From Mobula hypostoma (lineage: Eukaryota): a stretch of DNA of 64,000 bases. The notes below the pieces were generated by a model. It made no database searches. It had not been told where the DNA came from and saw only the letters and a list, made by a program, of their open reading frames with translations. Where the stretch lies: positions 56,608,001 through 56,672,000 of the forward strand of contig NC_086097.1 in NCBI RefSeq assembly GCF_963921235.1, given 5' to 3'. Of this stretch, positions 9,300 through 61,559 are shown one piece after another. Position 1 is the stretch's first letter. Each line of letters begins with the position of its first letter. A program made the translations under genes and the position numbers.

Positions 9300-9480
9300 T
9301 CCTATCATAGAGCATCCCCTTTCGCTGCCTCCTAAAACATGTTTTATCTCCAATGTTTCAGAACTCTGATAAGAGGTCATAAACCTAAAACATTAGCTGT
9401 GCTTCTCTCCCCACAGATGTGCCTGACTTGCTGAGTATTTGTCTCATTTTTCTTGTCTAATTTAAGTCTCCAGCTTTCAA
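9300..9480 (+). mobile_element. Degenerate Penelope-like pseudo-LTR
   Basis: 'cacagatgtgcctgacttgctgagtatt' resembles the pLTR copies at 15030, 58430 and 59160. Confidence 0.55.
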
Positions 9481-15024: not shown

Positions 15025-15132
15025 CTGAGCCCTGACGAAGAGTCCCGGTCTGAAACATGGACTATTCATTCATTTCCATAGGTGCTGCCTGACCTGCTGA
15101 GTTCCTCCAGCATTTTGAGTGTGTTGCTCTAG
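15025..15132 (+). mobile_element. Penelope-like pLTR fragment with degenerate hammerhead core
   Basis: CTGACGA 15032-15038 and GAAA 15052-15055, followed by 'gctgcctgacctgctgagttcctccagcattttg'. Confidence 0.8.
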
Positions 15133-18976: not shown

Positions 18977-19859
18977 GGGGAGGTTAGTTCAGTATCTTTG
19001 AAATATTGTTTAAACTCATTTTGTGGAATGATAGAAATAGCAGAGCCGGTGTCCAACTCCATTTTAATCAATCTGCTGTTCACTTCTGGTGTAAGCCTTA
19101 TTGCTTATCCATTGTTAGTTTTCACATTGTAACTCCTAAGGCTACTTAGTCCTCTGTCACTCTCATTATTATCGGATTTTTCATCAACAGCATGCAGATC
19201 AGTGCTCATTTTGAAACTGCATCTTGATTTTTTTAACTTTTTTTCTTCCCTGTGCAAGTCATCCATTTTAGTTTGCCTGAAATGCACTTTGTATGTGTCC
19301 CACTTTGTTGCATTTTCTGTAAGTTTTGCCTTTAAATCTGAATTGGTCTGGTGTATGTGAGCCCCTGCCGCAATGGTAACAAAATTTATTCAGCCAGGTA
19401 AGTTTCTGTTTAGACATTGCAATTTTGTTCATGCTTGCTTTCATTCCTGACTACAACTCATTTGCATCTCTGACTGCTGTTTCCAATGATACAGTGATTT
19501 CGACTGCTCTATTAAATGTGAGCTGTGCTGCAGCTGGGATCTGTTTTTGAACGCTTTCTTGTAAAATTCCACAAAGAAAAAAGTGTTGCACTTCAACAGG
19601 TAGATAATTGTCTCAGGTTTGTTTTAAAACTTCCTCATCGCCACTGTTATATTTTGTAACTCCAGGAACTAATTGAAAGAAAGAATCGCAGGAGTTGGAA
19701 AAACATGTCTACTTAGTTTTTTTTTTCTGAAGTGAGGTGCTCACATATAACATAGTGGCATAATGATGTAAGCCAATCAGTACTTCTTACATACAGCATA
19801 ACCCATAATGAATTATATGAACCAACAAAGAATGCTTAATTGAATAATATATTTACAAT

Positions 19860-19908
19860 CACAAACAAGAGAAAATCTGCAGATGCTGCAGATAGATGTG
19901 TGTGTTGC
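19860..19908 (-). mobile_element. 49-bp Penelope-like micro-insertion in a Gypsy LTR
   Basis: TSD AATATATTTACAAT at 19846-19859 and 19909-19922. The insert is absent from the other LTR and matches the pLTR terminus 'cagcatctgcagattttctcttgttt'. Confidence 0.8.
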
Positions 19909-25357: not shown

Positions 25358-26032
25358 AAAATTGCTGGTGAACGCAGCAGGCCAGGCAGCATCTCTAGGA
25401 AGAGGTGCAGTCGACGATTCAAGCCGAGACCCTTCGTCAAGACTAACTGAAGGAAGAGTTAGTAAGAAATTTGAAAGTGGGAGGGGGAGGGGGAGATCCA
25501 AAATGATAGGAGAAGACAGGAGGGGGAGGGATGGAGCCAAGAGCTGGACAGGTGATTGGCAAAAGGGATATGAGAGGATCGTGGGACAGGAGGCCCAGGG
25601 AGAAAGACAAGGTGGGGGGGAACCCAGAGGATGGGCAAGGGCTATAGTCAGAGGGACAGAGGGAGAAAAAGGAGAGTAAGAGAAAGAATGTGTGTATAAA
25701 AATAAATAACGGATGGGGTACGAGAGGGAGGTGGGGCATTAACGGAAGTTAGAGAAGTCAGTGTTCGTGCCATCAGATTGGAGGCTACCCAGACGTAATA
25801 TGTGTTGTTCCTCCAACCTGAGTGTGGCTTCACCTTTACAGTAGAGGAGGCCGTGGATAGACCTGTCAGAATGGGAATGGGATGTGGAATTAAAATGTGT
25901 GGCCACTGGGAGAGAAAGCAGGATCTGTACGTCGACTGTACCTCTTCCTAGAGATGCTGCCTGGCCTGCTGCATTCACCAGCAATTTTGGTGTGTGTTGC
26001 TTGAATTTCCAGCATCTGCAGAATTCCTGTTG
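25358..26032 (-). mobile_element. Penelope-like element: GIY-YIG C-terminus + pLTR (minus) joined to an inverted pLTR end (plus)
   Basis: ORF 25739..25984(-) has PVATHFNSTSHSHSD..IHGL.....RLEEQHI.RLGSLQ.DG.N, the PLE endonuclease tail. 25358-25416 is the reverse complement of 25930-25988. Confidence 0.9.
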
Positions 26033-32209: not shown

Positions 32210-33570
32210 CCATGGAAAGTATTCTTAGAGATGGTATATATAATTATCTGAATAGACAGGGTCTGATTAGGAACAGTCAACATGGATTTGCGCGTGGAGG
32301 GTCATGTTTGTCAAATCTTATTGAATTTTTTGGTGAGGTTACTAGGAAAGTTGTCAAGGGTAAAGCGTTGGATGTTGTCTATATGGACTTCAGTTAGGCC
32401 TTTGACATGGTTCCAAACGGAAGGCTAGTTAGGAAGGTTCAATCGTTAGGCATTAATATCGAAGTAGTAAAATGGATTCAGCAGTGGCTGGATGGGAGAT
32501 GCCAGAGAGTAGTGGTGGATAACTGTGTGTCAGATTGGAGGACAGTGACTAGTGGTGTGCCTCACAGATCTGTACTGGGTCCAATGTTGTTTGTCATATA
32601 TATTAATGATCTGGATGATGGGGTGGTAAACTGGATTAGTAAGTATGCAGATGATACTAAGATAGGTGGAGTTGTGGATAATGAAGTAGGTTTTCAAAGC
32701 TTGCAGGGAGATTTAGACCACTTAGAAGAGTGGGCTGAAAGATGGCAGATGGAGTTTAATGCTGATTAATGTGAGGTGTTACATTTTGGTAGGACTAATC
32801 AAAATAGGACATACATGGTAAATGGTAGGGCATTGAAGAATGCAGTAGAACAGCAGGATCTAGGAATAATGGTGCAGAGTTCCCTGAAGGTGGAATCTCA
32901 TGTCGATAGGGTGGTGAAGAAAGCTTTTGGTATGCTGGCCTTTATAAATCAGAGCATTTAGTATAGGAGTTGGGATGTAATGTTGAAATTGTATAAGACA
33001 TTGGTAAGGCCAAATTTGGAGTATTGTGTACAGTTCTGGTCACCGAATTATAGGAAAGATGTCAAAAAAAAATTGAGAGAGTACAGAGGAGATTTACTAA
33101 AATGTTGCCTGGGTTTCATCTCCTAAGTTATAGAGAAAGGTTGAACAAGTTAGGTCTTTTTTCTTTGGAGCATAGAAGGTTGAGGGGGAACTTGATAGAG
33201 GTATTTGAAATTATGAGGGGGATAGATAGAGTTGACGTGGATAGGCTTTTTCCATTGAGAGTGGGGGAGATTCAAACAAGAGGACATGAGTTGAGAGTTA
33301 AAGGACAAAAGTTTAGGGGTTACATGAGGGGAAACTTCTTTACTCAGAGAGTGGTAGCTGTGTGGAACGAGCTTCCAGCGGAAGTGGTTGAGGCAGGTTC
33401 GATGTTGTCATTTAAAGTTAAATTGGATAGCTATATGGACAGGAAAGGAATGGAGGGTTATGGGCTGAGTGCAGGTCGGTGGGACTAGGTGAGAGTAAGA
33501 GTTTGGCACAGACTAGAAGGGCCGAGATGGCCTGTTTCCGTGCTGTAATTGTTATATGTTTATATGGTTA
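32210..33570 (+). mobile_element. CR1 3' fragment inserted in the hAT transposase
   Basis: RT ORFs 32212..32961 and C-terminus 33102..33488. The hAT frame reads LDK|FWISVKEE across the insertion. Confidence 0.95.
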
Positions 33571-34427
33571 AATTCTGGATTTCTGTGAAAGAAGAGAATC
33601 CTGCCATTCATAGGAAAGCCATGAACATTTTGCTGGAGTTTTCAACTTCTTACATGTGTGAGCAAGCTTTTTCTTGTTTAACAAGCATCAAGATCAAGGA
33701 TAGAAATCATCTCATTTCAGCTGAAAATGAAATACGTGTGCTTATCTCAAGTTCGATCGAGAAATGAGAAATTATGTTTGCCTTATGAATTCTTAAAATT
33801 TATGAAAGGGAAAGAAAGATATTAATTTCAAGAAAGGTAAGATAAAGTTCATTGTCTACTCAAAATAGCATTGGCAATTATTTTTTGATTATCGTATCTA
33901 CAATTTACTGATCACACTAACGTACCGTGAGCTGCAGATATAATATTTTTAATGCAGGGCTTCCCTGAGACCTGAAAACTATTTCAAGGTTTCCTCCAGG
34001 TCAAAAAGAAAGAACATCCAGTGAGCAGCAGTTCTGTGGGCAAAAGGGTTTTGTTAATGAGAGCGGTCAGAGGAGAATAGCCAAACTGGTTCAAGCTGTC
34101 CAGAAGGTGACAGTAATTCAAATAACTATGACAACAGTGATGTGCAGAAAAGCATCTCTGAATGCACAGCACATCAAACCTTGAAGTGGATGGGCTACAG
34201 CAGCAGAAGACCATGGTCATACACTCAGTGGTCACCTCAATAGTTACACGGGGTACCTAATAAAGTGGCCACTGAGTGTATATTTGTTTGAGTTTTAGTG
34301 GAATTGGAATGAAAGTCACAATTTTCCTGCCACTATTTCGACCAGCTTGAAAACCTGATTAATCAGAGAAGCCAGTTCTTAACTCATATGTTCATTATCT
34401 GGTCAAAAGTATTTTTTTTCAGCCATT

Positions 34428-37104: not shown

Positions 37105-39960
37105 AGAGTCATAAAATCATAGAACACTCCAGCACAGACACAGGCCCTTCACTCTGCTGAACCATTAATCTGCCTACTCCCATCCACTTGCAACCAGACC
37201 ACAGCCCTCCATACCCTGTCCTTCCATGTACTTGTCCAAATTTCTCTTAAATTTTCAAATCCACCACTTGTCCTGGCAGATCATTCCTCACTCTCAGCAC
37301 CCTCTGAGTGAAGAATTTCCCCCTCACGTTCCCCTTAAACATTTCATCTTTCACCCTTAAGTCATGACCTCTACTTCTAGTCCCACCCACCTCAGTGGGA
37401 AAAGTCTACTTGCACTTACCTTATCCATACCCTTCATAATTTTGTATATCTCTATCAAATCTCTCCTCATTCTCCTACATGCTACGGAATGAAGTCCTAA
37501 CCTCTTCAACCTTTCCCTATAAGTCAGATCCTCAAGTCCCGGCAACATCCTTGTAAATTTTCTCTGTACTCTTTCAATCTTCTTTCCATCTTTCCTGTAG
37601 GTAGGTGACCAAAACTAGAAGCAATACACCAAATTAGGCTTCACTGACATCTTATGCAATTTCAATGTAACATCCTAACCCCTGTACTCAATACATTGAT
37701 TTATGAAGGCCAATGTGCTAATAGCTTCCTTTACAACCCTATCTACCCATGATGCCGTTTTCAAGGAATTATGACCCTGTATCCCCTGATCCCTTTCTTC
37801 TACCGGACACCTTTTTTTCCTTAACCAGTGGCTCAATATCTCTTGAAAACCTCCTCCCTAAACCTGTTATCCTTGCCTTTTATTCTGACAGGAACCTTTG
37901 AACTCTATTCTCAAAATGTAATTTTAGAGGCCTCCCAAGTACACCTTTGTCCTGATCCACACTTGCCAGATCCTTTCTGATACCATCAAAATTGGCCTTT
38001 CTCCAATTTAGAATCTCAACCTGAGGTCCAGACCTCTCCTTTTCCATAATTACCTTGAAACTATTGGCACTAGATGTATCAGATATGATCACTAGCTGCA
38101 AAGTTCTCCCCTACAAATGTCTGTCACCTGCCCTGTATCATTTCCTAGTAGGGGATCAAGTATCACACTCTCTCTACTTGGGACTTCTGTGTACTGAGTA
38201 AGGAAACTTTTCTGAACACATTTGACAAACTCTTTGTCATTCAGCCCTTTTACAGTGTGGGAGTCCCAGTCAATATAACCATATAACAATTACAGCACGG
38301 AACCAGGCCATCTCGGCCCTTATAGTCCATGCCAAACTCTTACTCTCACCTAGTCCCACCGACCTGCACTCAGCCCATAACCCTCCATTCCTATCCTGTC
38401 CATATAGCTGTCCAGTTTAACTTTAAATGACAACATCAAACCTGCCTCAACCACTTCTGCTGGAAGCTCGTTCCACACAGCCACCACTCTCTGAGTAAAG
38501 AAGTTCCCCCTCATGTTACCCCTAAACTTTTGCCCTTTAACTCTCAAATCATGTCCTCTTGTTTGAATCTCCCCCACCCTCAATGGAAAAAGCCTATCCA
38601 TGTCAACTCTATCTATCCTTCTCATAATTTTAAATACCTCTATCAAGTCCCCCCTCAACCTTCTACACTCCAAAGAATAAAGACCCAACTTGTTCAACCT
38701 TTCTCTGTAACTTAGGTGATGAAACCCAGGTAACATTCTAGTAAACCTTCTCCGTACTCTCTCTATTTTGTTGAAATCTTTCCTATAATTTGGTGACCAA
38801 AACTGTACACAATACTTCAAGTTTGGCCTCACCAATGCCTTGTACAATTTCAACATTACATCCTAATATTTGGAAAGCTAAAATCACCTACTGTCACAGC
38901 CTTATGTTTCTTGCATCAGTCTGCGATCCCGCTCCAAATTTGCTCCTCTAAATCCTGCAGACTGTTGAGTGGTTATATAACAGAATTATTATATAATCTT
39001 AGTAACATGGTCATACCATTTTTATTCCTCATTTACCCATAAAGCCTCACTAGACAAGTTCTCCTGTCTGTCCTGACTGAACACTACCATGACATTTTCC
39101 CTTACTAGTAATGCCACCCCTCCCCCTTTATTCCCCATCCCTCCCCACCACTTCTCTATTACATCTAAAGTATTGAGCTGCTAGTCCTGCCCCTTCTGCA
39201 ACCAAGCCTCACTAATGGCTACAACGTCACTCCACGTGCTGATCCATGCCCTAAGCAGCTCAGAACATTAGTCCCACCATGCTTAACCTTTTGGTTCTTG
39301 ACTCTGTATATATGCTTAACAACATCTTTCTCCACAATCAGTCCACTATCTGGTCTGGCACTCCAGTGTAAACCCCGTCTCTACCCCCCCCCCCACCCCA
39401 TGTAGCACTAGCAAACTTCCCACTAGGATATTAGACCCCCTCCACCCCTCCAGTTCAGGTGCAAACCATCCCACCTTCCCTGGAAGAGAGCCCAATGATC
39501 CAAAAATCTGAAACCCTCCCTCCTACGCAGACTCCTTAGCCACATGTTAAACTGTATAATCTTCATATTTCTGTCCTCACTAGCATATGGTACAGGTTGT
39601 AATCCTGAGAACACAACCCTGGAGGTTGAGTCCTTTAACTTAGCACCTAACTCCCTGAACACACTTTGCATGACCTCATCACCCATCCTACATATGTCAT
39701 TGGTACCAATGTGGACCATGATCTCTGGCTATTCACCCTCCCACTTAAGAATGCTGTGGACTTGATCTGAGCTGTACTAAACCCTGGCACCCAGGAGGCA
39801 ACAAACCATCCAAGAATCTTGTTTTCATCCACTGAACCGCCTTTCTGTTCCCTGAACCAATCTGTATCACTACAGCTCGGCTCTTCGCCCCCCCCCCCCG
39901 CTTCCCTTCTAAGCCAAGTAGCAGCAATCTGCTTGCCAAAGAGTGAGGTTGCTTTTCCCA
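37105..39960 (-). mobile_element. Older CR1 with ORF1 esterase, endonuclease, large internal deletion (~37810) and 3' end
   Basis: ORF 39423..39719 (VHIGTNDI, VVFSGL, DHW, DGLHLN), endonuclease remnants at 37880-38289 and C-terminus 37357..37548. Confidence 0.9.
38277..38864 (-). mobile_element. Younger CR1 3' fragment nested in the older CR1
   Basis: ORF 38350..38856 is nearly identical to the protein encoded at about 32980-33488. AATAT occurs at 38272-38276 and 38865-38869. Confidence 0.92.
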
Positions 39961-43130: not shown

Positions 43131-46100
43131 TGTTATACTTGTCCTCAATATATATAAATTTGGCAGTGGGTTTACATTAGAACATTTTATTACCGACCTG
43201 CTCTTCAATCTTGTGTACGTGCAACCAAATCACCATTGTAACTTCTCGGTCCAGGTGAACATCTCGCATTGCCCGCTGAGAACTGAAGTTCTTTATTATG
43301 CACACATGATAATCTCTGGGTATTAGAAAAGAGGTCTGTTACCACAGACCATTACAATTAAACAAATCCACTCCAACTTTGAAGTATGGCCTGCCTTTTA
43401 TAGGGTGTTGTCATGGTCCAGTCCGTGAAATCTGCATTCCAGTTCACGGTCCGGTGCATGTTCCTTATTCCAGGTTTTCTGGTTTTCCCCAGTTTCTGTT
43501 GAGGCAGCTGATTCTTGTTTGGGCTGGCTTCATAAATACCTTCAGGATTCAGCCTTTGGCTGCTGGATTGTACCCCCCGTCCCTCCCGTCGTCCCGTCAT
43601 CCCGTCGTCCCGTCGTCCCGTCGTCCCCCCCGTCCCGTCCTCCCATCCTCCCGTCCTCCCGTCGTCCCCCCACCGCTGTCAAGTTCCATTGCCAGAGCAA
43701 GATAAGGAACTGTCTATTGTTGTTTTGAACTGTGTTTGCTGCTACCTAGTGTTGGGATCTGTCTTTGCGTCCACACCTTTTCTAGGTAGGTCTGGCTGTT
43801 TGCTACTACCTAGTGTTGGGAACTGTCTGTGTTCACACCTTCGCTAGGTAGGTCCGGCTGTCTGCCGCTGGCTTGTGTTGGGAACTGTCTCATCATATTC
43901 TGCATTCTGTGTATGAGTCCTGGCCTTACGTCCTGTTTCCAAGGAGGAGTTCTGGCTCTGTGTTCCATGTTCCTGTCTCTCCCTTGACCAAGGCTCTGTG
44001 TTCCTGTCTCTCCCTTGACCAAGGCAAGGCTTCGGGGTCTTGTCCAGTCCTAGCCACAATCCAAGAACCTTGTCCTGTCCAAGCCATGGCTTTGTGCTCT
44101 TGTCTTGTCCATGTGTCTTGCCCAGCCCAGGAGTACCTTGCCCAGGCCGGTGCTGGGGTTCCCTTGTCCTGTCCAGGAGTCTCACGTTCAGTCCTGTTAC
44201 CTCTCCTCGTCCTGTAGCCACGTCTTGTTCTTGCCTAGTTCTGGAGTCTGAGCCTGAGTCAAGTCCCAAGTTCTGGGTCCTTGCCCAGTCTCTGGCTCGG
44301 AGTCCGTACCCAAGCTTTGAAGAACCCAAGCCTCGTCATGTCTTCGCCTAGATCCGGGGTCCGAGCCCGAGTCAAGACCCAGGTTTCGGGTCCTTGTCCA
44401 GTCTCTGGCTCAGAGTCCAAGCCCAGGCTCCTAGTTCCCAGTTCCATGGCCTGGTTCCACTATCCTAGTCAAGTCCTAGCCCAGGCCCTGTATCCTTGTC
44501 TCATCCAGGCCCTGTGTCATATCCAGCGTCCTTTCTTCCCCATTTCCCTTTCTTCCTTGTCACGCCTAGTCCTGTTCCTAGTGTTTTAGTGTCTGTGTCT
44601 TGCATTTGGTTCGGCCTCTCAGCGCACCCCCCCCCCCCTTATGACAGGTGTGGTGTAAGCAGTTCTCTTGCTGCTTTGGTCTGTAGATGAGATATATTTC
44701 ATATGAAGCAATGGTCTGGCTGATGTCTTGGTCAGTACATCACTTCATGAATTCCACATCTACATTTTCCTCACCATCATGCTCTTTGTGTATCTTCTGG
44801 AGCATTTTCTTGCGTAGCCACACTGGAATCACAAAACTGTTCCCTTTGAAGACCATATCTTCCACTACTGACAGTTCAGCTCTGCATGCCCAATAATCCC
44901 AAACACACATTTGACAGTCATTCTTAGTTGCTGACCATCCTTTCTGTATTTCTCTATGAGTACTTTCATTGTTTCATTTGTCCATGCTGCTCTCCTGATC
45001 TTCTCTGTTCTATCAGGAGATACTGGAAAGGAGGTGACAATCCTGTCGGCTTAGGCCTGTATATCTATATTAATCTCATGGTCACTCTTTTCTTTCTTGT
45101 CGATGCTCAAGACAACACATCAGCAGCAAACCTATTTTCCTGGAGTGCAGATCATCTTCACATCCTATTTCTACAACCTTATCAAGGTGCACTGTATCCT
45201 CATGGGACAGTCATTCAGTGGTTTGGACAGAATTGAGACCAGTGGTTTATGGTCTGTCTCCACTTCAAACGCTTGTCCACAGAGGTACTGATGGAACTTT
45301 CACATGCATATGTACTGGCAAGAAGCTTTTTCTCTATCTGTGCATAGTTGGCTTCCACACATGTTAATGCCCTTGATGCATAGGCCACAGGTTGCCATGT
45401 GTCATCATGCTGCTGCAGTAGTACTGCTCCAAGACCGTGCCGGGGCATATCAGCCGAGATCCTCGTACATCTTTCTGGATCATAAGACCTCAGCAGGGGC
45501 TCTTCAGTTATGACTCTCCTCAGCATCTGGAAATACTCTTCTTGCTCGTGAGACCAAATCCACTCATTTCACTGCTCAAGGAGTGACCAAATTGGTGCTG
45601 ACACAGTTGACAGTCAAGGGATGAACTAAACCAGGAAAGTCACTTTCCTCACCTCCTCTGTGTTTTGGGGCCTCTCCATGTTTTCAATGGCTGATATCTT
45701 TCTTGGGTCAGGCTGCACTCCTTCTTCAGGAATGACATCTCCTATGAAGATCAGTGTCTTAACACCAAACTCACGGTTCTCTTTATTTAATTTCAAAACT
45801 GACATTCCATGCCACGTCAAGCACTTGTCTCAGTCGTGTATCATGTTCATCCTTGGTAGACCCCAGATGATCCATCGTGGTTTCGACACCAGGTATGCCC
45901 TCAAAGATCATGTGGATGATTTTATGGTCAACCTGGTGCGGAGAGGGTCCCATATGGTAGCCGAAGAAAGTGCTATCTTCCTTGTGGTGTATTAAAAGTA
46001 CACAGTATCAAGCAACTGGTGAGCTAACCCAATCTATTGGTTCTTCAGTTTTCTGTATGACATTCATCAGTTCCATGTGTGCTAGTTCTTGTTTAAGTTT

Positions 46101-48867: not shown

Positions 48868-49719
48868 TGTTACGTACCCCGTAACTGGGTCGCCAAACCA
48901 GTAGAAATGGATCACTCAGTTGGAGTCTGGATTACTAGAACTAAGAAAGTTTTATTAAAGAAACAGACAACACAGTACTCTAATCAAAAGGATAATGAAT
49001 GCAACAGTTCAGCAATGATAAACATACATGTACACAGCATTAAGATAATAGGATCAATCAAGCTCTATCGTTGTCTAGGGGTAAATGACCAGTTTCAAAG
49101 TGACGCAAAGTTCAGTTCAATTTAGTTCAGTTCAGTTCGCAGACAGTGGGGGGAAGGAGAGAGAGAGCAAAACGAATGAATATTCAAAACGGCTTCCACA
49201 CACAGACCTTCGCAGTCAGCTTTCGGGCGAGCCCTTTGTGATGTCATCTGAGGTCACCGACCGTGACCCCTCCGTTTCCAGATACGATCGTTACTCTGCG
49301 GTGAACCTGGCACCCAGGCAAGGGTGGACACACACCAGGTTCCCGCTGATCGTGCCTTTCCACCCTCAGCGTCTATGGCTTGATCCCGCGATCAGCCGTC
49401 CAAAAACTTCCCACCGACTTGTGAGAGACGCACGCTTCCAGGGTCTCGTTACCTCGGGGTGTCGTATGTGTCTTGCCTTAGCGAACCTGTCCCTTTTTAT
49501 CCCCCTGCTGGGGTATCGCCTGTCCATCACTTCAAGCAGTTCAGGGTTCAAAGGGGGAGCCGATCTTGACAGCTCTCCTTCCTTCATTAACATCTCCAAA
49601 TGCTGCTCCATTGTTTTCCTTATCTCTCTCTCCCGAAGACAGGTGGCAGACCAACTGCTGATCCCACTGGTGCCAGCCCAGGCCAGCTAACATCTTAATT
49701 TATGTGTATTCTCGTCACA
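48868..49719 (-). mobile_element. Solo LTR (852 bp), CpG-rich, 4-bp TSD
   Basis: TGTTACG...CGTCACA termini. CATT at 48864-48867 and 49720-49723. On the minus strand a TATA-like ATAAAAAGG (~49500) lies upstream of AATAAA (~48955). Confidence 0.9.
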
Positions 49720-50817
49720 CATTCAAGAAAGAACAGGAGAATCCTTCCATAGTTTGAAAAACAAACACATTGGAAATGAATATAATAAATCTAGCAACTG
49801 AAGAGAAAGTGATTAGTCCCATCTATTAAAGAAATGGTTCTAAGATAACAGAGTTTAAAAACTAAGTTTTTTTTGCAAATCTCCATTTATCAATATAAGA
49901 CTTGAAAAGGCTTGAATTTCAACATATTATTTGTATGGAAAAAAAGTTTTACAAAGAATCCAACACCTACAAGGATACTTTTATTGATGACAGATTCTTA
50001 TTTCTAGATTTAAAATATATATTTTATTTATTCTGCCACTATACGGTTAGAGCTTACATTCTCTAGATTAATGCTCCTGTAACTGTACCAAGACACCCCA
50101 TAGTGGGCTATATTTACTGCTTTGGGAGATTTCCTAAACTTTTGTTTATGATGGATGGAGCATCTCTTAATCTATTCACTTCAAACACAAGTGGAAGAAA
50201 TTCAATAACAGTTGAAGTTAGTTGCTGGCTTCCAGCCACTGAAAGGAAAATTTCAAACACTACTCAGAAAGTAGATATGATTCGGTCTGTTTCCTGAGAG
50301 TTTTCAGGTTAAGATGATCTTTTTTAGCAGGTCCCAATCTAACACAAAAAATAAACTTAGTATATTTTGGAAATTCTAAATATTTGGGGCAATAGAATAG
50401 GTGAGAAATTTCGATAGGGACTGTACAAATTAAGTCCAAAAGGGTGGCCTAAATGTTGAGTTTATAGATTGCATTCAAGATAGTTGAACCAAGCACAAAA
50501 AGATAAAATGCTGGAGGCACTCGGGAGATCAAGAGGCATCAGTGAAAAGAGAAACAGACTTGACATTTCAGGCCAAGGACCCTTTGTTGTAAATAGAAAA
50601 ATATGAGGAAACAAGCATGTTATGTTGCAGAGGGTGATCAAAGAGATCCAAGGAGATGGCTGGATGCAGGGCAGGTTAAAATTATCAAGGTAATAATTAC
50701 TTTGAAAACTGACAAGTGGAGACTTAAATATAAAAAGAAACAATTTGAAACAGAAAGGTACAGCCACATATGTGGAGAAAGGAGAAAAAATGCCTGCCTG
50801 GTATGGTTAAATTCTAT

Positions 50818-51061
50818 GTGAACGCAGCAGGCCAGGCAGCATCTATAGGAAGAGGTACAGTCAATGTATCGGGCCGGGACCCTTCATCAAGGCTAACTCT
50901 TCTTACTATCTCTTCTTTCAGCTAGTCCTGACGAAGGGTTCCAGCCTGAAACATCAATTGTACCTCTTCTTATAGATGCCGCCTGGCCTGCTGCGTTCAC
51001 CAGCAATTTTTTGTGTGGGTTGCTTGAATTTCCAGCATCTGCAGATTTCCTTGTGTCTGCG
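50818..51061 (+). mobile_element. Younger fold-back Penelope-like pLTR insertion with 14-bp TSD
   Basis: 50818-50897 is an imperfect reverse complement of 50921-51000. TGGTTAAA(T/C)TCTAT at 50804-50817 and 51062-51075. Confidence 0.9.
50923..50960 (+). ncRNA. Minimal type I hammerhead ribozyme-like motif (core intact, stem I eroded)
   Basis: TAGTC-CTGACGA-A-GGGT-TCCA-GCCT-GAAA-C-ATC-AATTG. Confidence 0.6.
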
Positions 51062-51728
51062 TGGTTAAACTCTATCCTGAGTTTTGAGGGCTTCAACATA
51101 CCCAGACGGAATGCTGATTCTACAGCTTACATTGGTCATTGTTGGAACAACTTAGAGCGCTAAAGCTGGAGTGGTCGGTGTGTGTGCAGTGGAGAATTCA
51201 AGCGACAGAAGCTCAGGACTGTCCTTGCAGTCTGAATGGAGGTATTCTGCAAAGCAATCCCCTTTTCAATCTCCATTTGGTTTCTCCAGTGTCGTGAGCA
51301 TCAGATACAGCTGTCTAAACTAGACAAAGTGCTTATGAGTTTCTGCTTCACGGGAAGGAGTGCTTAGGTTCCTGGATGGTGTGAATGCAAAACATCTCCC
51401 TCAGGTGCATGAGAGAGGATGTTATTTATTGTGACAAAAATCCCCTCTGCAAAATAATTACTTCTATCGTGATCATAGAATTATAAACCTAAACATTTAA
51501 TTTCAGGCTGAACATAGTGTGCATTACATGACAGCTCTCAAACACCAGTGGACTGGATTTGATGCAGTGGAATATATGATCTAAATTATTTTCTCAATTT
51601 CTTTTCTATTTCAGTGTGATTTCCACCAAAGGATTAGATTTCTGTTCCTTGAAGATGGAACTTAGTTGCAAAATGTCTTTGGTGACTAAGTAAAACTGAC
51701 AACACTGCAGTAATCTATTTTTCCTATT

Positions 51729-58189: not shown

Positions 58190-58568
58190 AACTACCCCCC
58201 CCGCCTCTTCCTCCAATCTATACTCTGACCTTTTACCTCTTCTCACCCGCCTATCACTTCCACTCAGTCCCCTCCTCCTTCCCTTTCTCCTATGGCCCAC
58301 TCTCCTCTCCTATCAGTTTCCTTCTTATCCGGTCCTTGACCTTTCCCACTCACCTGGCTTCACCTATCACCTTCCGGCTGGCTTTTTTCTCATGTCCCCA
58401 CCTTTTATTCTGGTTGTCCCCCTCCCTTCTCAGTTCTGAAGAAGGGTCTCAGCCCAAAATGTCAACTGCCTATTCATTTCCGTAGATGTTACCTGACCTG
58501 CTGAGTTCCTCCAGCAGTTTGTGTGTGTTGCTATGGATTTCCAGCATCTGCATGCTTTCTCATATTTA
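58190..58568 (+). mobile_element. Penelope-like pLTR with hammerhead-like motif
   Basis: Pyrimidine-rich pLTR related to 25450-25620(-). CAGTT-CTGAAGA-A-GGGT-CTCA-GCCC-AAAA-T-GTC-AACTG at 58431-58468, then the 'cctgacctgctgagttcctccagc' terminus. Confidence 0.85.
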
Positions 58569-58924: not shown

Positions 58925-60430
58925 AAAAAGCTGAAATGATAGCTGGAAATTCTCAGTAGGTTAGGCAATGTCTGTGGAAACAGGGCTAAACTTTCAGGTT
59001 GAAGACTCTTCGTTAGAATTGGGAAAAGCTGAAAGTGAGTTCATTTTAACTATCAGACAGGGTGGAAGATGGATCAATGGAAAAGGAGAATATTTTTGTT
59101 ACGGTGTGGACATGAATGAAGAATCAATGTTTCGAGCCAGGACCCATATTCAGGTCCGGTCTCGGCCCGAAACGTTGACTGTTTATTCATTTCCACAGAT
59201 GCTGCCTGACCTCCTGAGTTCCTCCAGTATTTTGTGTGTGTCACTCTGGACTTGCAGCATTTGCAGATTTTCTCATGTTTGTAATTAAGTTAATGGGATG
59301 GTTAGAGAAAAAGAGAGAACTTGAACAAAGGAACATGACAGGTATGAAATGAAAAGAGGTAGAAAGGAAGAACAGAAACAAAGCAATGTAGGAGTTGTGA
59401 AATGCAGAGCTGAAGAACATGCTCAGCAGGTCGGCTCTACAATTGGAGAAAGGGCGACCGAGTGAATGTCACGGATTGACTGGCAAGTTCTGAAAGCAAA
59501 TTATATGAAGTAGAATCTGGACCACAGTTTGCATATGGTTCTCCAGTATCAAAGAGACCACATTGTGAACGTGGAATGTAGCACATAAGATTGGACAAGG
59601 TGCAGGAGAGTTACTGCTTCACCAGGAAAGACTGTTTGGGTGTCTGTATGGAGGAAAGGAAGAGGTGAAAGGACAGGTGTGGAAGCTGTGTGGGAGCATG
59701 TCATGATTGAGGAGTTGCTGTTGGGACCAGAATAACAGAGCAGAAAGTAGTTAACTGTCTCGTCAAAATGTTGCCGGGGAGGAGGTGGGGAGATATGTTC
59801 AGTGATGGAATCTTGAAGCTAGCAGAAATTGTGAAGGATGATTTGTTGAATGTTGAGATTGTAGGCTGGAAACTGAAGACCAGGGGAGTGATCCTAACTC
59901 TGTCCAGAAGAGATGGTCAGGTCAGAGGTATGGGAGGTGGATGAGATGTAACTAGGATCTCTTTCAACTCTGGTAGGGGAAAAGCAGTGGTTTATCAAAG
60001 AGGAAAAGATGTAATCATCAGAGCAAATATAGCAGTGAGGAGAGAACAGAGAGAATGGAATGAAGCCCTACTAGAGGAGGGGTGAGAAGAAGAATAGTCT
60101 AGTTAGCTGAGAGTATGTAGGCTGGTGTTTATCATTGGCCTGTCCCTGATATGATGACAGAGAAATCAGAAAGGGAAGGAAAGCATCATACGTATCATGT
60201 TAAAATGAAATCACGGTGAAAAACGGCAGAAAAAGTGATGAAATTTGAGTTCTACCTGAATACAGGAAATCACACCAGTGCCTTTTAATGCTCCAGTTGT
60301 GTGTAAGAGAACTCAAAAGGAATAAAACAAAAATCTGTCCCACATAAAGTCTAGCTGAGCTTGGGTCCATCACAGTCTCCAAAACCACACCTTACATTTG
60401 GAAGAATTGGGCAGAGTTGATAGAACAGCT
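58925..60430 (-). mobile_element. Old Penelope-like element (RT relic + pLTR)
   Basis: ORF 60200..60388(-) VMDPSSARLYVG resembles the PLE RT motif MGPSYA.LFVG. Degenerate pLTR at 58935-59020. Confidence 0.6.
59124..59281 (+). mobile_element. Small fold-back PLE pLTR insertion
   Basis: 'ggtctcggcccgaaacgttgactg' (59158-59181) is preceded by an inverted copy 'tcaatgtttcgagccaggaccc' (59124-59145). Confidence 0.75.
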
Positions 60431-61559
60431 GTTCAACAAGTGTGAAACAAAATACTAACACAATGCCAGATGGAAAATGACAATCTAGGCCTATGGTTTA
60501 AATATAAAACTCATTTTTCTAATAAGCCAAGTTATATGTGGTAAGTATTATATAACTTATATTTAATAATTAAGTAACTTGTTATTTCTGATATTTCCAC
60601 TAAATAGGGCTGTTAGTTATGCAATGAATCACACTGAAACTTAGTTCTCCTAAATTTGAGAATATTGTAGTCTGAAAAATACGAACAGTGAGACATAGCC
60701 TTATTTACAACAACTCCTGGAATCCGTGGCCTTTTTCATAGATTTAACGGTTCAGAGAAACAAAAGGAGAAGGATAAACAATAATTAAATGTGTTACTAA
60801 TTCATGAACTACTTGACAATGGCTGTTTAAAGTCATCATTTTACTAGAAATCTGCCCTGTTCAGTAACTTCAATACACCAATGCTCCAGCATGTTGTTGT
60901 TCTGCCTTCCAAATTCGTTCCATTGACTTCAATGGAACTAGTTCTGGATGCAAAATACAGTGTATTTGTCCAACCTCATAGTTCCCTACCAGCCAAGGTT
61001 GAAATACCAGGCACATGCCGCTCAGTAGCGTCATCTCCAAAAGCATGTACAGAATTTAAGTAACAAAATATAAAAACTGCAGTTTTGAAATTACAGCAAC
61101 CAAGCAATTATTAGATATAACAACATCAACACGTAACATTTGGTTATGTCAGTTCTTCAGAATAAATTTATAGTGAACTCCAGGGGAGGCTGTTGCTGTG
61201 AAACAAGTATCTAATAAACAAGGCTTTACAGTATATCACAAATAATTTCAGCAATCTTAATTATTTTTCAACATTTAAAAGAAAACAGAAAGCTAGTAGC
61301 ATGTAGTAGTGACATCCTGCACCTCCAATTCCAGTGCAGTTTCATGTAGTTGTATAACATCGAAGATTCATTTCATACTTAAAATTCATCTTCCGAACTA
61401 TCAGCTAGTAGCATCACATGATCTTGCATGCTGGTGAAATCTCTCGGCTGCAATTTCAAACAAAGACAATTATAGTACTTTGAGTTACTATATCTGTATA
61501 ATATTTGCATCTTACAAGAACTTATAGTTAACACAGCATTTATGTCTACAGTACTGGGA

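What the first reader, a model, noticed from the sequence alone, without database searches (positions are those of the whole stretch)
50923..50960. Penelope pLTRs carry a minimal type I hammerhead ribozyme; most core-intact copy
Seen: TAGTC-CTGACGA-A-GGGT-TCCA-GCCT-GAAA-C-ATC. Related copies lie at 15027-15064, 25408-25445(-), 50858-50895(-), 58431-58468 and 59158-59181. Their consensus, YAGTC CTGANGA A GGGT CTCG GCCC GAAA C GTC|GACTG, contains stem I (YAGTC/GACTG), the CUGANGA box, a 4-bp stem II with a tetraloop, GAAA, a vestigial palindromic stem III (ACGT) and an NUH cleavage triplet. Established: PLE pLTRs are known to carry minimal hammerheads thought to cleave as dimers. An extra A between A9 and G10.1 has precedent in the CChMVd viroid hammerhead. 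Inference: this is a dispersed ribozyme family in this genome. Every copy here has at least one lesion, many of them CpG-decay type.
Basis: partly seen in the sequence, partly recalled or inferred. Interest (0 to 1): 0.7.

Follow-up and report, generated by a model that had tools for sequence, protein, structure and literature searches.

The report
Decayed Penelope hammerhead ribozyme copy
This is a worn copy of the tiny, predicted self-cutting RNA motif that Penelope-type jumping genes are already known to carry; it sits in one arm of a 244-base fold-back insertion, its catalytic letters survive but two of its supporting helices are damaged, so this copy likely no longer cuts and the finding is ordinary.

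Summary
Observation confirmed. 50923-50960 is the only site in the window with all hammerhead core letters intact in a minimal type I layout (1 hit, 0 in 20 shuffles), and the five listed sister copies exist. The link to Penelope-like elements (PLEs) is shown: one copy lies about 295 nt behind the end of a PLE ORF (84% to a ray protein with RT, zinc-linker and GIY-YIG motifs), and 2 of 2 unrelated metagenome contigs found by the motif alone carry a PLE-type RT. The layout matches the published PLE minimal-hammerhead consensus (PMC4209133), extra nucleotide included. The focal copy, however, is one arm of a head-to-head insertion (50818-51061, 14-bp target duplication). It has lost the ACGT palindrome and the closing pair of helix I, and is predicted to be buried in a -140 kcal/mol hairpin, so it is likely dead. 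Cleavage was not tested. The scan has noted this motif many times before (4005 findings in at least 83 genomes; 1838 in this genome). I found no paper describing this ray family itself. New member of a known kind; low interest.

The parts
50804..50817 (.). left copy of a 14-bp target-site duplication (1 mismatch to the right copy)
   Evidence: 1 of 2000 random window pairs gives a match as long
50818..50898 (-). inverted arm of the insertion (81 nt); begins at the A of the TCAGT word 3 nt before helix I and ends 61 nt short of the other arm
   Evidence: (I20)
50858..50895 (-). hammerhead motif of the inverted arm: C3U, A14U, G16.2A, U17; core broken
50900..51061 (+). forward arm: 5'-truncated pLTR piece with hammerhead and one-sided tail (51001-51061)
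   Evidence: (loose ends at 50901)
50923..50960 (+). focal minimal type I hammerhead motif: helix I 50923-27 with 50956-60, C3-A9 50928-34, extra A 50935, helix II 50936-39 with 50944-47, G12-A15.1 50948-51, 15.2/16.2 = C/A 50952-53, U16.1 50954, C17 50955; predicted cut 50955|50956. Core intact; C15.2-A16.2 and C2.1-A1.1 mismatched; G10.1-U11.1 wobble
51062..51075 (.). right copy of the target-site duplication
25742..25912 (-). last 57 codons of a PLE ORF (end of the GIY-YIG endonuclease), stop at 25741-25739; same family as the focal copy
25446..25738 (-). pyrimidine-rich spacer (79% C+T) between ORF stop and hammerhead; its last 22 nt match the start of the focal forward arm
25408..25445 (-). 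hammerhead motif behind the ORF (C3U, A15.1U, C11.2U); palindrome positions C15.2-G16.2 kept
25929..26028 (+). inverted arm at the 5' end of the ORF-bearing copy; starts at A15.1 and carries the longer tail
15027..15064 (+). hammerhead copy, second subfamily; G at 17 (not NUH), inserted in a LINE-like stretch
58431..58468 (+). hammerhead copy, second subfamily; G12A; U2.1-A1.1 closing pair
59158..59290 (+). 5'-truncated pLTR copy starting in helix II; forward arm of a third head-to-head pair
9359..9401 (+). old, divergent hammerhead copy (G8A, G12A; helix II with A10.1-U11.1 and U-A pairs, 5-nt loop)
50555..50597 (-). old copy with the CUGANGA box lost
   Evidence: E=0.019

Best explanation
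The stretch is a decayed copy of the minimal type I hammerhead motif in the terminal repeat (pLTR) of an abundant Penelope-like retrotransposon, likely of the Neptune type and likely in a ray genome; in the source element the motif is predicted to cut its own RNA after C17, likely only as a pair or with help from the element's protein, while this copy likely no longer cuts. Shown: the motif lies about 295 nt behind the ORF stop of a PLE; the focal copy is one arm of a 244-bp head-to-head insertion with a 14-bp target duplication and a one-sided tail; its core is intact and helices I and III are broken. From the literature: such motifs do not cut as monomers, cut weakly as dimers (helix III formed between two copies through the palindrome), and in the anole PLE cut only with the PLE protein. 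Inferred: the element's endonuclease and reverse transcriptase made both arms from one kind of pLTR RNA in one event; the arms then decayed without selection, mostly at CpG; read-through RNA would fold arm on arm and hide the motif.
For: PLE link: P0001 (25742-25912, minus) is 84% identical to P0002 and 67-84% to all 9 hits, all from rays by their source names; the longer hits show an RT-like YIDD/YVDN motif, a CxxxxCxxC linker and a YIGET endonuclease, with Pfam GIY-YIG in 4 of 6 scanned, E 0.0005-0.002, below the curated cut-off. A 27-letter motif pattern found 2 metagenome loci; 2 of 2 carry RT similar to the ray proteins (tblastn E 3e-86 and 9e-16) with no DNA similarity to the window, and in L002 an 840-codon frame with the DKG motif starts inside the motif; 0 of 23 viral-contig loci found with a looser pattern have such an RT. 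Family sequence: in run X1 depth-weighted letters are A14 99%, C17 73%, G16.2 68%, C1.3 92%, G8A 4.8%. In two other organisms the laid depth peaks on the motif and falls 11- to 169-fold within about 10 nt on either side, against 2- to 3-fold in X1. Helix II is paired in 97% of cells over 9 rows, and the helix I closing pair is C-G 4, U-A 3, G-C 1, unpaired 1. Dead copy: hammerhead fold -1.5 against -7.0 kcal/mol for the window majority, double hammerhead +8.8 against -11.5 with 4 pairs broken; helix II probability 0.000 in the whole insertion and 0.007 in the forward arm alone; the two arms differ at 13 of 81 aligned bases.
Against: No cleavage test and no RNA-end data: only contigs were available, none on record as RNA. 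Rfam has no hammerhead hit. Among window copies the core is not clearly better kept than the rest (11 of 84 core positions changed against 51 of 216 other motif positions, p=0.056, and 58 of 332 in the downstream block, p=0.41); this fits neutral decay but gives no proof of selection. Covariation is thin: pairs changed on both sides 4, shuffles 3.6 (276 of 500 as high), helix I paired in only 69% of cells, and L002 has 1 helix I pair. L001 and L002 hold the core by construction of the search. The fall of depth at the 3' edge partly reflects a variable-length linker, since a block further on is also conserved. Neptune is assigned from the linker motif only; no tree was built. Nearest-neighbour energies do not score the tertiary core.
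Confidence: 0.9

Rival explanations
1. The motif is a PLE hammerhead relic that is no longer a ribozyme even in the source elements of this lineage; it is kept as a promoter or protein-binding element, or merely carried along.
For: The window majority folds best as a rod in which the core box pairs with the cleavage strand (-11.0 against -7.0 kcal/mol). Both arms of the focal insertion share A16.2, so a template with a broken palindrome may have been mobilised. U11.1 is frequent in this species. In the anole PLE, cleavage was not needed for insertion and no RNA-seq reads ended at the cut site (PMC11167929); 8 of 9 Xenopus retrozyme dimers did not cut (bioRxiv 10.64898/2026.07.22.740005).
Against: The depth-weighted family letters keep the catalytic core and the motif is the part shared with other organisms; published PLE hammerheads do cut weakly or with protein. 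The shared A16.2 can be two independent CpG decays or gene conversion.
Confidence: 0.25
2. The focal copy is itself an active or host-recruited ribozyme, kept intact in its core by selection, cutting a host transcript.
For: All 11 fixed core letters and an NUH triplet are intact; AUC can be an efficient triplet when helix III is paired (PMC1636495); a contig of run X9 (RNA is only a guess) covers the unique left flank 50523-50843 without differences.
Against: Helix III palindrome and helix I closing pair are lost, the other arm would pair over the motif, and the nearest same-strand copy is 7.5 kb away with G12A. With about 13% change per core position, about 1 in 5 neutral copies would keep all 11 letters.
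Confidence: 0.03
3. The copies are a stand-alone non-LTR retrozyme or SINE family, or a chance look-alike, not PLE ends.
For: Most copies in the window are short and have no ORF beside them; animal retrozymes carry type I hammerheads and derive from pLTRs.
Against: No tandem monomers among these copies; one copy is contiguous with a PLE ORF end; head-to-head arms with a one-sided tail and a target duplication are described PLE insertion forms (PMC8557442, PMC3846280); chance is excluded by the descriptor test and the repeat family.
Confidence: 0.04

Closest known systems
Minimal hammerheads (min-HHR) in pLTRs of animal Penelope-like elements (Cervera and de la Pena 2014, PMC4209133; seen: parts 1-2 of 4 of the text, parts 1-2 of 3 of the supplement)
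   Same: Type I; core box followed by one extra nucleotide; G10.1 helix II; GAAA; no helix III beyond palindromic 15.2-16.2; short helix I; pyrimidine-rich 5' flank; thousands of mostly single, truncated copies; close pairs on opposite strands. The Acropora digitifera Neptune motif has the same 4-bp helix II, 4-nt loop and C-G-U-C segment.
   Different: No cartilaginous fish among the 56 listed motifs; helix II here is short (4 bp) compared with the 7 bp of the listed teleost and Xenopus(1) motifs; U11.1 is common here; this copy is decayed.
Poseidon PAc of the green anole (Frangieh et al. 2024, PMC11167929; seen: parts 1-2 of 4)
   Same: Hammerhead at the pLTR; genomic one-sided tail; AT-rich target.
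   Different: PAc is Poseidon; the ray proteins have the zinc-finger-like linker of Neptune/Nematis. PAc cleavage was measured (protein-assisted); here nothing was measured. No 5' ORF start was seen behind the ray motif.
Complex EN+ PLE insertions with inverted 5'-truncated copy and one-sided 30-40 bp tail (PMC8557442, PMC3846280; passages)
   Same: Head-to-head arms, tail on one arm only, target duplication.
   Different: Here both arms are under 170 bp and hold no ORF; the tail difference is 61 nt in the focal insertion and about 40 nt in the one at 25358-26028.
Animal non-LTR retrozymes (Li, Clavereau and Pollet 2026, 10.64898/2026.07.22.740005; seen: parts 1 and 3 of 5 and passages; supplements not seen)
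   Same: Type I hammerhead, pLTR origin, present in one chondrichthyan genome.
   Different: Retrozymes are head-to-tail tandem units; the window copies are dispersed or inverted.
CChMVd (+) hammerhead with extra A10 (passage in PMC1636495)
   Same: Extra A between A9 and G10.1.
   Different: Viroid motif with a 7-bp helix III and loop-loop contacts; unrelated origin.

Membership tests
PLE minimal type I hammerhead (family level) | Core C3-U4-G5-A6-N7-G8-A9, G12-A13-A14-A15.1, U16.1-H17 | tested here: met
   Focal copy 0 mismatches; window majority intact; A14 99%, C17 73% of depth in X1
PLE minimal type I hammerhead (family level) | One extra nucleotide between A9 and 10.1 | tested here: met
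   Present in 9 of 9 rows of A2
PLE minimal type I hammerhead (family level) | Helix II with G10.1-C11.1 | tested here: inconclusive
   Helix II paired in 97% of cells; pair 10.1-11.1 is G-C 5, G-U 3, A-U 1 of 9; focal copy G-U; U11.1 frequent in X1, C 74% and 53% in X10 and X13
PLE minimal type I hammerhead (family level) | Palindromic 15.1-16.1 segment in place of helix III | tested here: met
   G16.2 in 68% of depth in X1; C-G kept in 3 of 9 window rows, CA 4, TG 2
PLE minimal type I hammerhead (focal copy) | Palindromic 15.1-16.1 segment and closed helix I | tested here: not met
   ACAT is not self-complementary; C2.1-A1.1 mismatch; double hammerhead +8.8 kcal/mol
PLE minimal type I hammerhead (family level) | Helix I open-ended, closing the core | tested here: met
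   5 pairs in the majority and in 25408-25445 and 58431-58468; closing pair covaries C-G/U-A/G-C, but only 69% of cells paired over 9 rows
PLE minimal type I hammerhead (family level) | Located in the pLTR of a PLE | tested here: met
   About 295 nt behind a PLE ORF stop
PLE minimal type I hammerhead (family level) | Self-cleavage after H17 (dimer or protein-assisted) | not testable with these tools
   Needs in vitro assay or raw RNA reads; only contigs were served
EN+ Penelope-like element | Single ORF with RT and C-terminal GIY-YIG endonuclease | tested here: met
   Window holds the last 57 codons; homologues show RT and GIY-YIG (Pfam scores below cut-off)
EN+ Penelope-like element | Inverted 5'-truncated copy, one-sided tail, target duplication | tested here: met
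   Focal insertion has all three; no clear duplication found for the four other insertions searched
Neptune clade | CX2-5CxxC linker between RT and endonuclease | tested here: met
   Present in P0002-P0005 and P0008; shared with Nematis (PMC8557442); not in the window's own intact fragment
Neptune clade | RT phylogeny with Neptune references | not tested
   No labelled reference sequences were at hand
Non-LTR retrozyme | Head-to-tail tandem units each with a hammerhead | tested here: not met
   Copies are single or inverted
Rfam hammerhead families | Covariance-model score | tested here: not met
   No hammerhead family at E<=10

The most novel reading that the evidence does not exclude
In this ray PLE the roughly 295-nt pyrimidine-rich spacer between ORF stop and hammerhead is a spliceosomal intron whose acceptor lies at or inside helix I (TACTAAC at 25464-25458, polypyrimidine run, CAG and then TAG) and whose donor lies at the ORF's last codon. 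Splicing would rebuild helix I and so switch the ribozyme, as described for Drosophila virilis Penelope, making a splicing-gated hammerhead common to flies and rays. Hints: two of nine ray gene models run from the PLE's final NFR into other sequence, one of them into a VKOR domain. Against: the window copy has no GT directly after the CG of the last codon, the second subfamily lacks TACTAAC, AG is not depleted beyond composition (3 seen, 3.1 expected), no protein with the joined frame was found, and a copy that begins at the A of TCAGT fits a transcription start better than an exon start.
Probability: 0.08. Interest if true: 0.45.

Novelty: new member of a known kind. Interest (0 to 1): 0.12.

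Why it matters
Little on its own: minimal hammerheads in PLE terminal repeats have been published since 2014 for many animals, fish included, and this copy is likely inert. The family adds cartilaginous fish to the listed hosts of the minimal motif (none among the 56 motifs of PMC4209133; my searches 'penelope+shark+ribozyme' and 'penelope+elasmobranch+genome+repeat' returned no paper that describes it by title or abstract; Repbase, Dfam and Lunse et al. could not be checked). Its very high copy number makes it a good statistical substrate for the open question of what the PLE hammerhead is for (do copies begin at the cut site or before the motif; were templates with a broken palindrome mobilised), but that needs the whole genome, not this copy.

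Tried and rejected
Rfam scans of the window, of 50880-51000 and of L001/L002: no hammerhead family. Plain two-box pattern: not above chance. Whole genome: none held, so no genome-wide count. Pfam on the 57-aa window fragment: 0 families. PLE protein and strict motif in viral contigs: nothing; motif in prokaryote genomes: nothing. Consensus structure for the conserved block 3' of the cut site: 0 pairs over 8 rows, so no second structured RNA is claimed. Protein search with the frame that runs through the motif (P0011): no hit among 37 candidates. Target duplications for the insertions at 15 kb, 25 kb, 58 kb and 59 kb: only 7-10 bp matches off the boundaries. A test of tolerated against lethal CpG changes could not be made: one search listed 4 positions only. 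No RNA holder listed for the locus. Age from other species: contigs of organism B reach 23 and 29 bases into the two arms, under the tool's 31-base rule, and contigs of organism C stop at 50815 and 51062; a hint that the insertion is shared, not counted as evidence. The covariance model R1 finds 7 strong hits, all training rows, so it adds only weak extras. mis-registered two copies (25917, 50597) and its majority was wrong at 16.2; one search replaces those lines, with the 16.2 letter G (5 of 9 rows). Lunse et al. (PMC5785218) was not held; I know it only by title and through the review PMC6765202 (passages). PMC2632901 and PMC6155905 (passages) added nothing specific; PMC2377424 (passages) gave the D. 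virilis intron and promoter.

Full report
Observation. Profile and covariance searches add copies at 25929-26028(+), 59121-59158(-), 9359-9401(+), 50555-50597(-) and a tail-only piece at 19858-19894(-). The two core boxes alone are not above chance (5 hits; 11 of 100 shuffles as high). A full minimal-hammerhead descriptor finds exactly one site without a core mismatch, the focal one, and none in 20 shuffles. Rfam has no matching hammerhead model. The stretch is a high-copy repeat: 40,562 contigs of DNA run X1 were laid on 50400-51400 at 80% or more, with summed depth in the millions on the repeat and about 10 on the flanks (the tool warns that this is no copy number).

What the repeat is. The copy at 25408-25445(-) is preceded by a pyrimidine-rich spacer and, about 295 nt further up, by 57 open codons that end in a stop. 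That peptide is 67-84% identical to 9 of 27 candidate proteins, all named from rays (Mobula, Hypanus, Hemitrygon). The longer ones show an RT catalytic motif, a CxxxxCxxC linker and a YIGET endonuclease motif; 4 of 6 scanned match Pfam GIY-YIG below the curated cut-off. RT plus C-terminal GIY-YIG defines endonuclease-bearing Penelope-like elements, and the linker marks Neptune or Nematis (PMC8557442, passages). The host is therefore likely a ray and the element likely Neptune; both are inferences, and no tree was made. An older, broken PLE ORF lies at 59513-60436(-).

Independent link between motif and PLE. A motif-only scan of metagenome contigs gave 2 loci. Both carry an RT similar to the ray proteins (E 3e-86 and 9e-16) and neither has DNA similarity to the window. 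In L002 an 840-codon frame with the DKG motif starts inside the hammerhead on the same strand; in L001 the motif is on the strand opposite to the RT, 1.7 kb before it. Of 23 viral-contig loci found with a looser pattern, none has such an RT. The core is conserved in L001 and L002 by construction; the RT next to it is the non-circular result.

Anatomy of the focal locus. The motif lies in the forward arm (50900-51061) of a head-to-head pair; the other arm is 50818-50898(-). The unit is flanked by a 14-bp duplication with one mismatch (50804-50817, 51062-51075), which 1 of 2000 random window pairs matches. The forward arm is 61 nt longer at its 3' end. The ORF-bearing copy has the same build, with an inverted arm at 25929-26028 that is about 40 nt longer, and a third pair meets at 59158. 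Inverted 5'-truncated copies, a one-sided tail and target duplications are described for PLEs (PMC8557442, PMC3846280; passages). I found the duplication before reading the scan's earlier notes on it.

Family versus copy. Depth-weighted letters in run X1 restore the textbook motif where the window copies differ: A14 99%, C17 73%, G16.2 68%, C1.3 92%; G8A is 4.8%. These figures lean towards the reference used. U11.1 is common in this species (C in 33% and 12% of depth on two T-bearing references; 74% and 53% in organisms C and F). In organisms C and F the depth peaks on the motif and falls 11- to 169-fold within about 10 nt, against 2- to 3-fold in X1, so the motif is the part shared across subfamilies; a variable linker explains part of the 3' drop. 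Over 9 aligned motifs helix II is paired in 97% of cells and helix I in 69%; the closing pair of helix I is C-G, U-A or G-C in 8 of 9; the count of doubly changed pairs is not above shuffles (276 of 500). Within the window the core decays about like its surroundings (11 of 84 against 51 of 216, p=0.056; against 58 of 332 downstream, p=0.41) and CpG sites decay faster (24 of 66 against 38 of 234, p=0.0009; 9 rows, tail-only row left out, 59121-59158 not in that alignment).

The focal copy keeps all core letters but has A16.2 (ACAT, not self-complementary), A1.1 (helix I closing pair lost), U1.3, U11.1 and three loop changes. The hammerhead fold is worth -1.5 kcal/mol against -7.0 for the window majority; the double hammerhead +8.8 against -11.5. 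In the whole insertion the arms pair with each other (-140.6 kcal/mol) and helix II has probability 0.000. The arms differ at 13 of 81 bases, which points to an old insertion if they were alike at birth (inference). Both arms share A16.2 and a loop change, which may mean that the template already lacked the palindrome, or may be independent CpG decay or conversion. The majority motif itself folds best as a rod that pairs the core box with the cleavage strand (-11.0), in line with low activity of naked RNA; these energies ignore tertiary contacts.

Mechanism. Shown: position in the pLTR, insertion form, sequence lesions. From papers: animal PLE minimal hammerheads show no monomer activity and low dimer activity (PMC4209133); the anole PLE motif cuts only with the PLE protein, and cutting is not needed for insertion in vitro (PMC11167929). 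Inferred: in source elements the motif cuts after C17 when paired with a second copy in a tandem transcript or when folded by the element's protein; short two-armed insertions are by-products of the element's endonuclease and RT acting on pLTR RNA; this copy is inert. Confidence 0.9 for identity and inertness; about 0.25 that even source elements no longer cut.

Comparison and novelty. The published consensus for animal PLEs has the same core, extra nucleotide, G10.1, palindromic 15.2-16.2 and pyrimidine-rich flank, names fish Xena, Poseidon and Neptune, and notes thousands of single copies and close pairs on opposite strands. The coral Neptune motif has nearly the same dimensions. None of the 56 listed motifs is from a cartilaginous fish; a 2026 preprint covers one chondrichthyan for retrozymes and PLEs (its supplements were not seen and may list this family). 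Two searches for shark or elasmobranch Penelope ribozymes returned no relevant paper by title or abstract. The scan itself has 4005 notes with these words in at least 83 genomes and 1838 in this genome. Verdict: real, a new member of a known kind, interest 0.12.

Lead left open. Upstream of helix I the ORF-bearing copy has TACTAAC, a pyrimidine run and two AG words; D. virilis has an intron end at helix I, and P0004 and P0010 continue past the PLE's last residues into other sequence. That the P0010 joint falls on a host exon border is recalled, not checked. The inverted arm of the focal insertion starts at the A of TCAGT, and L001 has a TATA-like word about 30 nt before the same TCAGT, which fits the start-site reading in earlier scan notes better than an acceptor. 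I rate the intron idea at 0.08.

Noticed in passing
window 25464-25443 (-): Branch-point-like TACTAAC, pyrimidine run, CAG and TAG directly before and inside helix I; TCAGT also reads as an initiator. Acceptor or start site unresolved.
   Followed up: partly
proteins P0004, P0006, P0007, P0009, P0010: Ray gene models in which the PLE endonuclease end is fused to host sequence (kinase-like, ATP synthase c, VKOR by their source names); two continue past the PLE's last residues, which hints at a splice donor at the stop codon.
   Followed up: partly
window 59513-60436 (-): Old, frameshifted PLE ORF remnant (RT to start of GIY-YIG), about 30-39% identical to the ray proteins.
   Followed up: partly
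window 50972-51050 and sister copies: Block 3' of the cut site is conserved between subfamilies as well as the motif; contains short inverted words but gave no consensus structure.
   Followed up: partly
L002:10-2536: Near full-length PLE with the hammerhead at its 5' end and an 840-codon frame starting inside the motif; helix I has only one pair.
   Followed up: partly
L001:549-610 (-): TATA-like word about 30 nt upstream of TCAGT and the hammerhead; RT on the opposite strand from 2312.
   Followed up: partly
L003-L025 (viral contigs): 23 hammerhead-like motifs with the same extra nucleotide and a 4-bp helix II; many seem to continue into a longer helix III; no PLE RT nearby.
   Followed up: no
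window 58981-59023 (-): Weak extra hit of model R1 (E=0.009), possibly another old copy.
   Followed up: no
window 33066-33565 and 38273-38772: 500-nt inverted arms, 93% complementary, 4.7 kb apart, among many LINE-like repeats.
   Followed up: no
window 34217-34283: Near-perfect 67-nt hairpin that scores weakly to mir-9256 on both strands (below the gathering score); may be a MITE-like palindrome.
   Followed up: no
window 49085-49690 (+): 201-codon open frame with no assignment.
   Followed up: no
window 43568-43676: 8-bp-unit C-rich tandem repeat.
   Followed up: no
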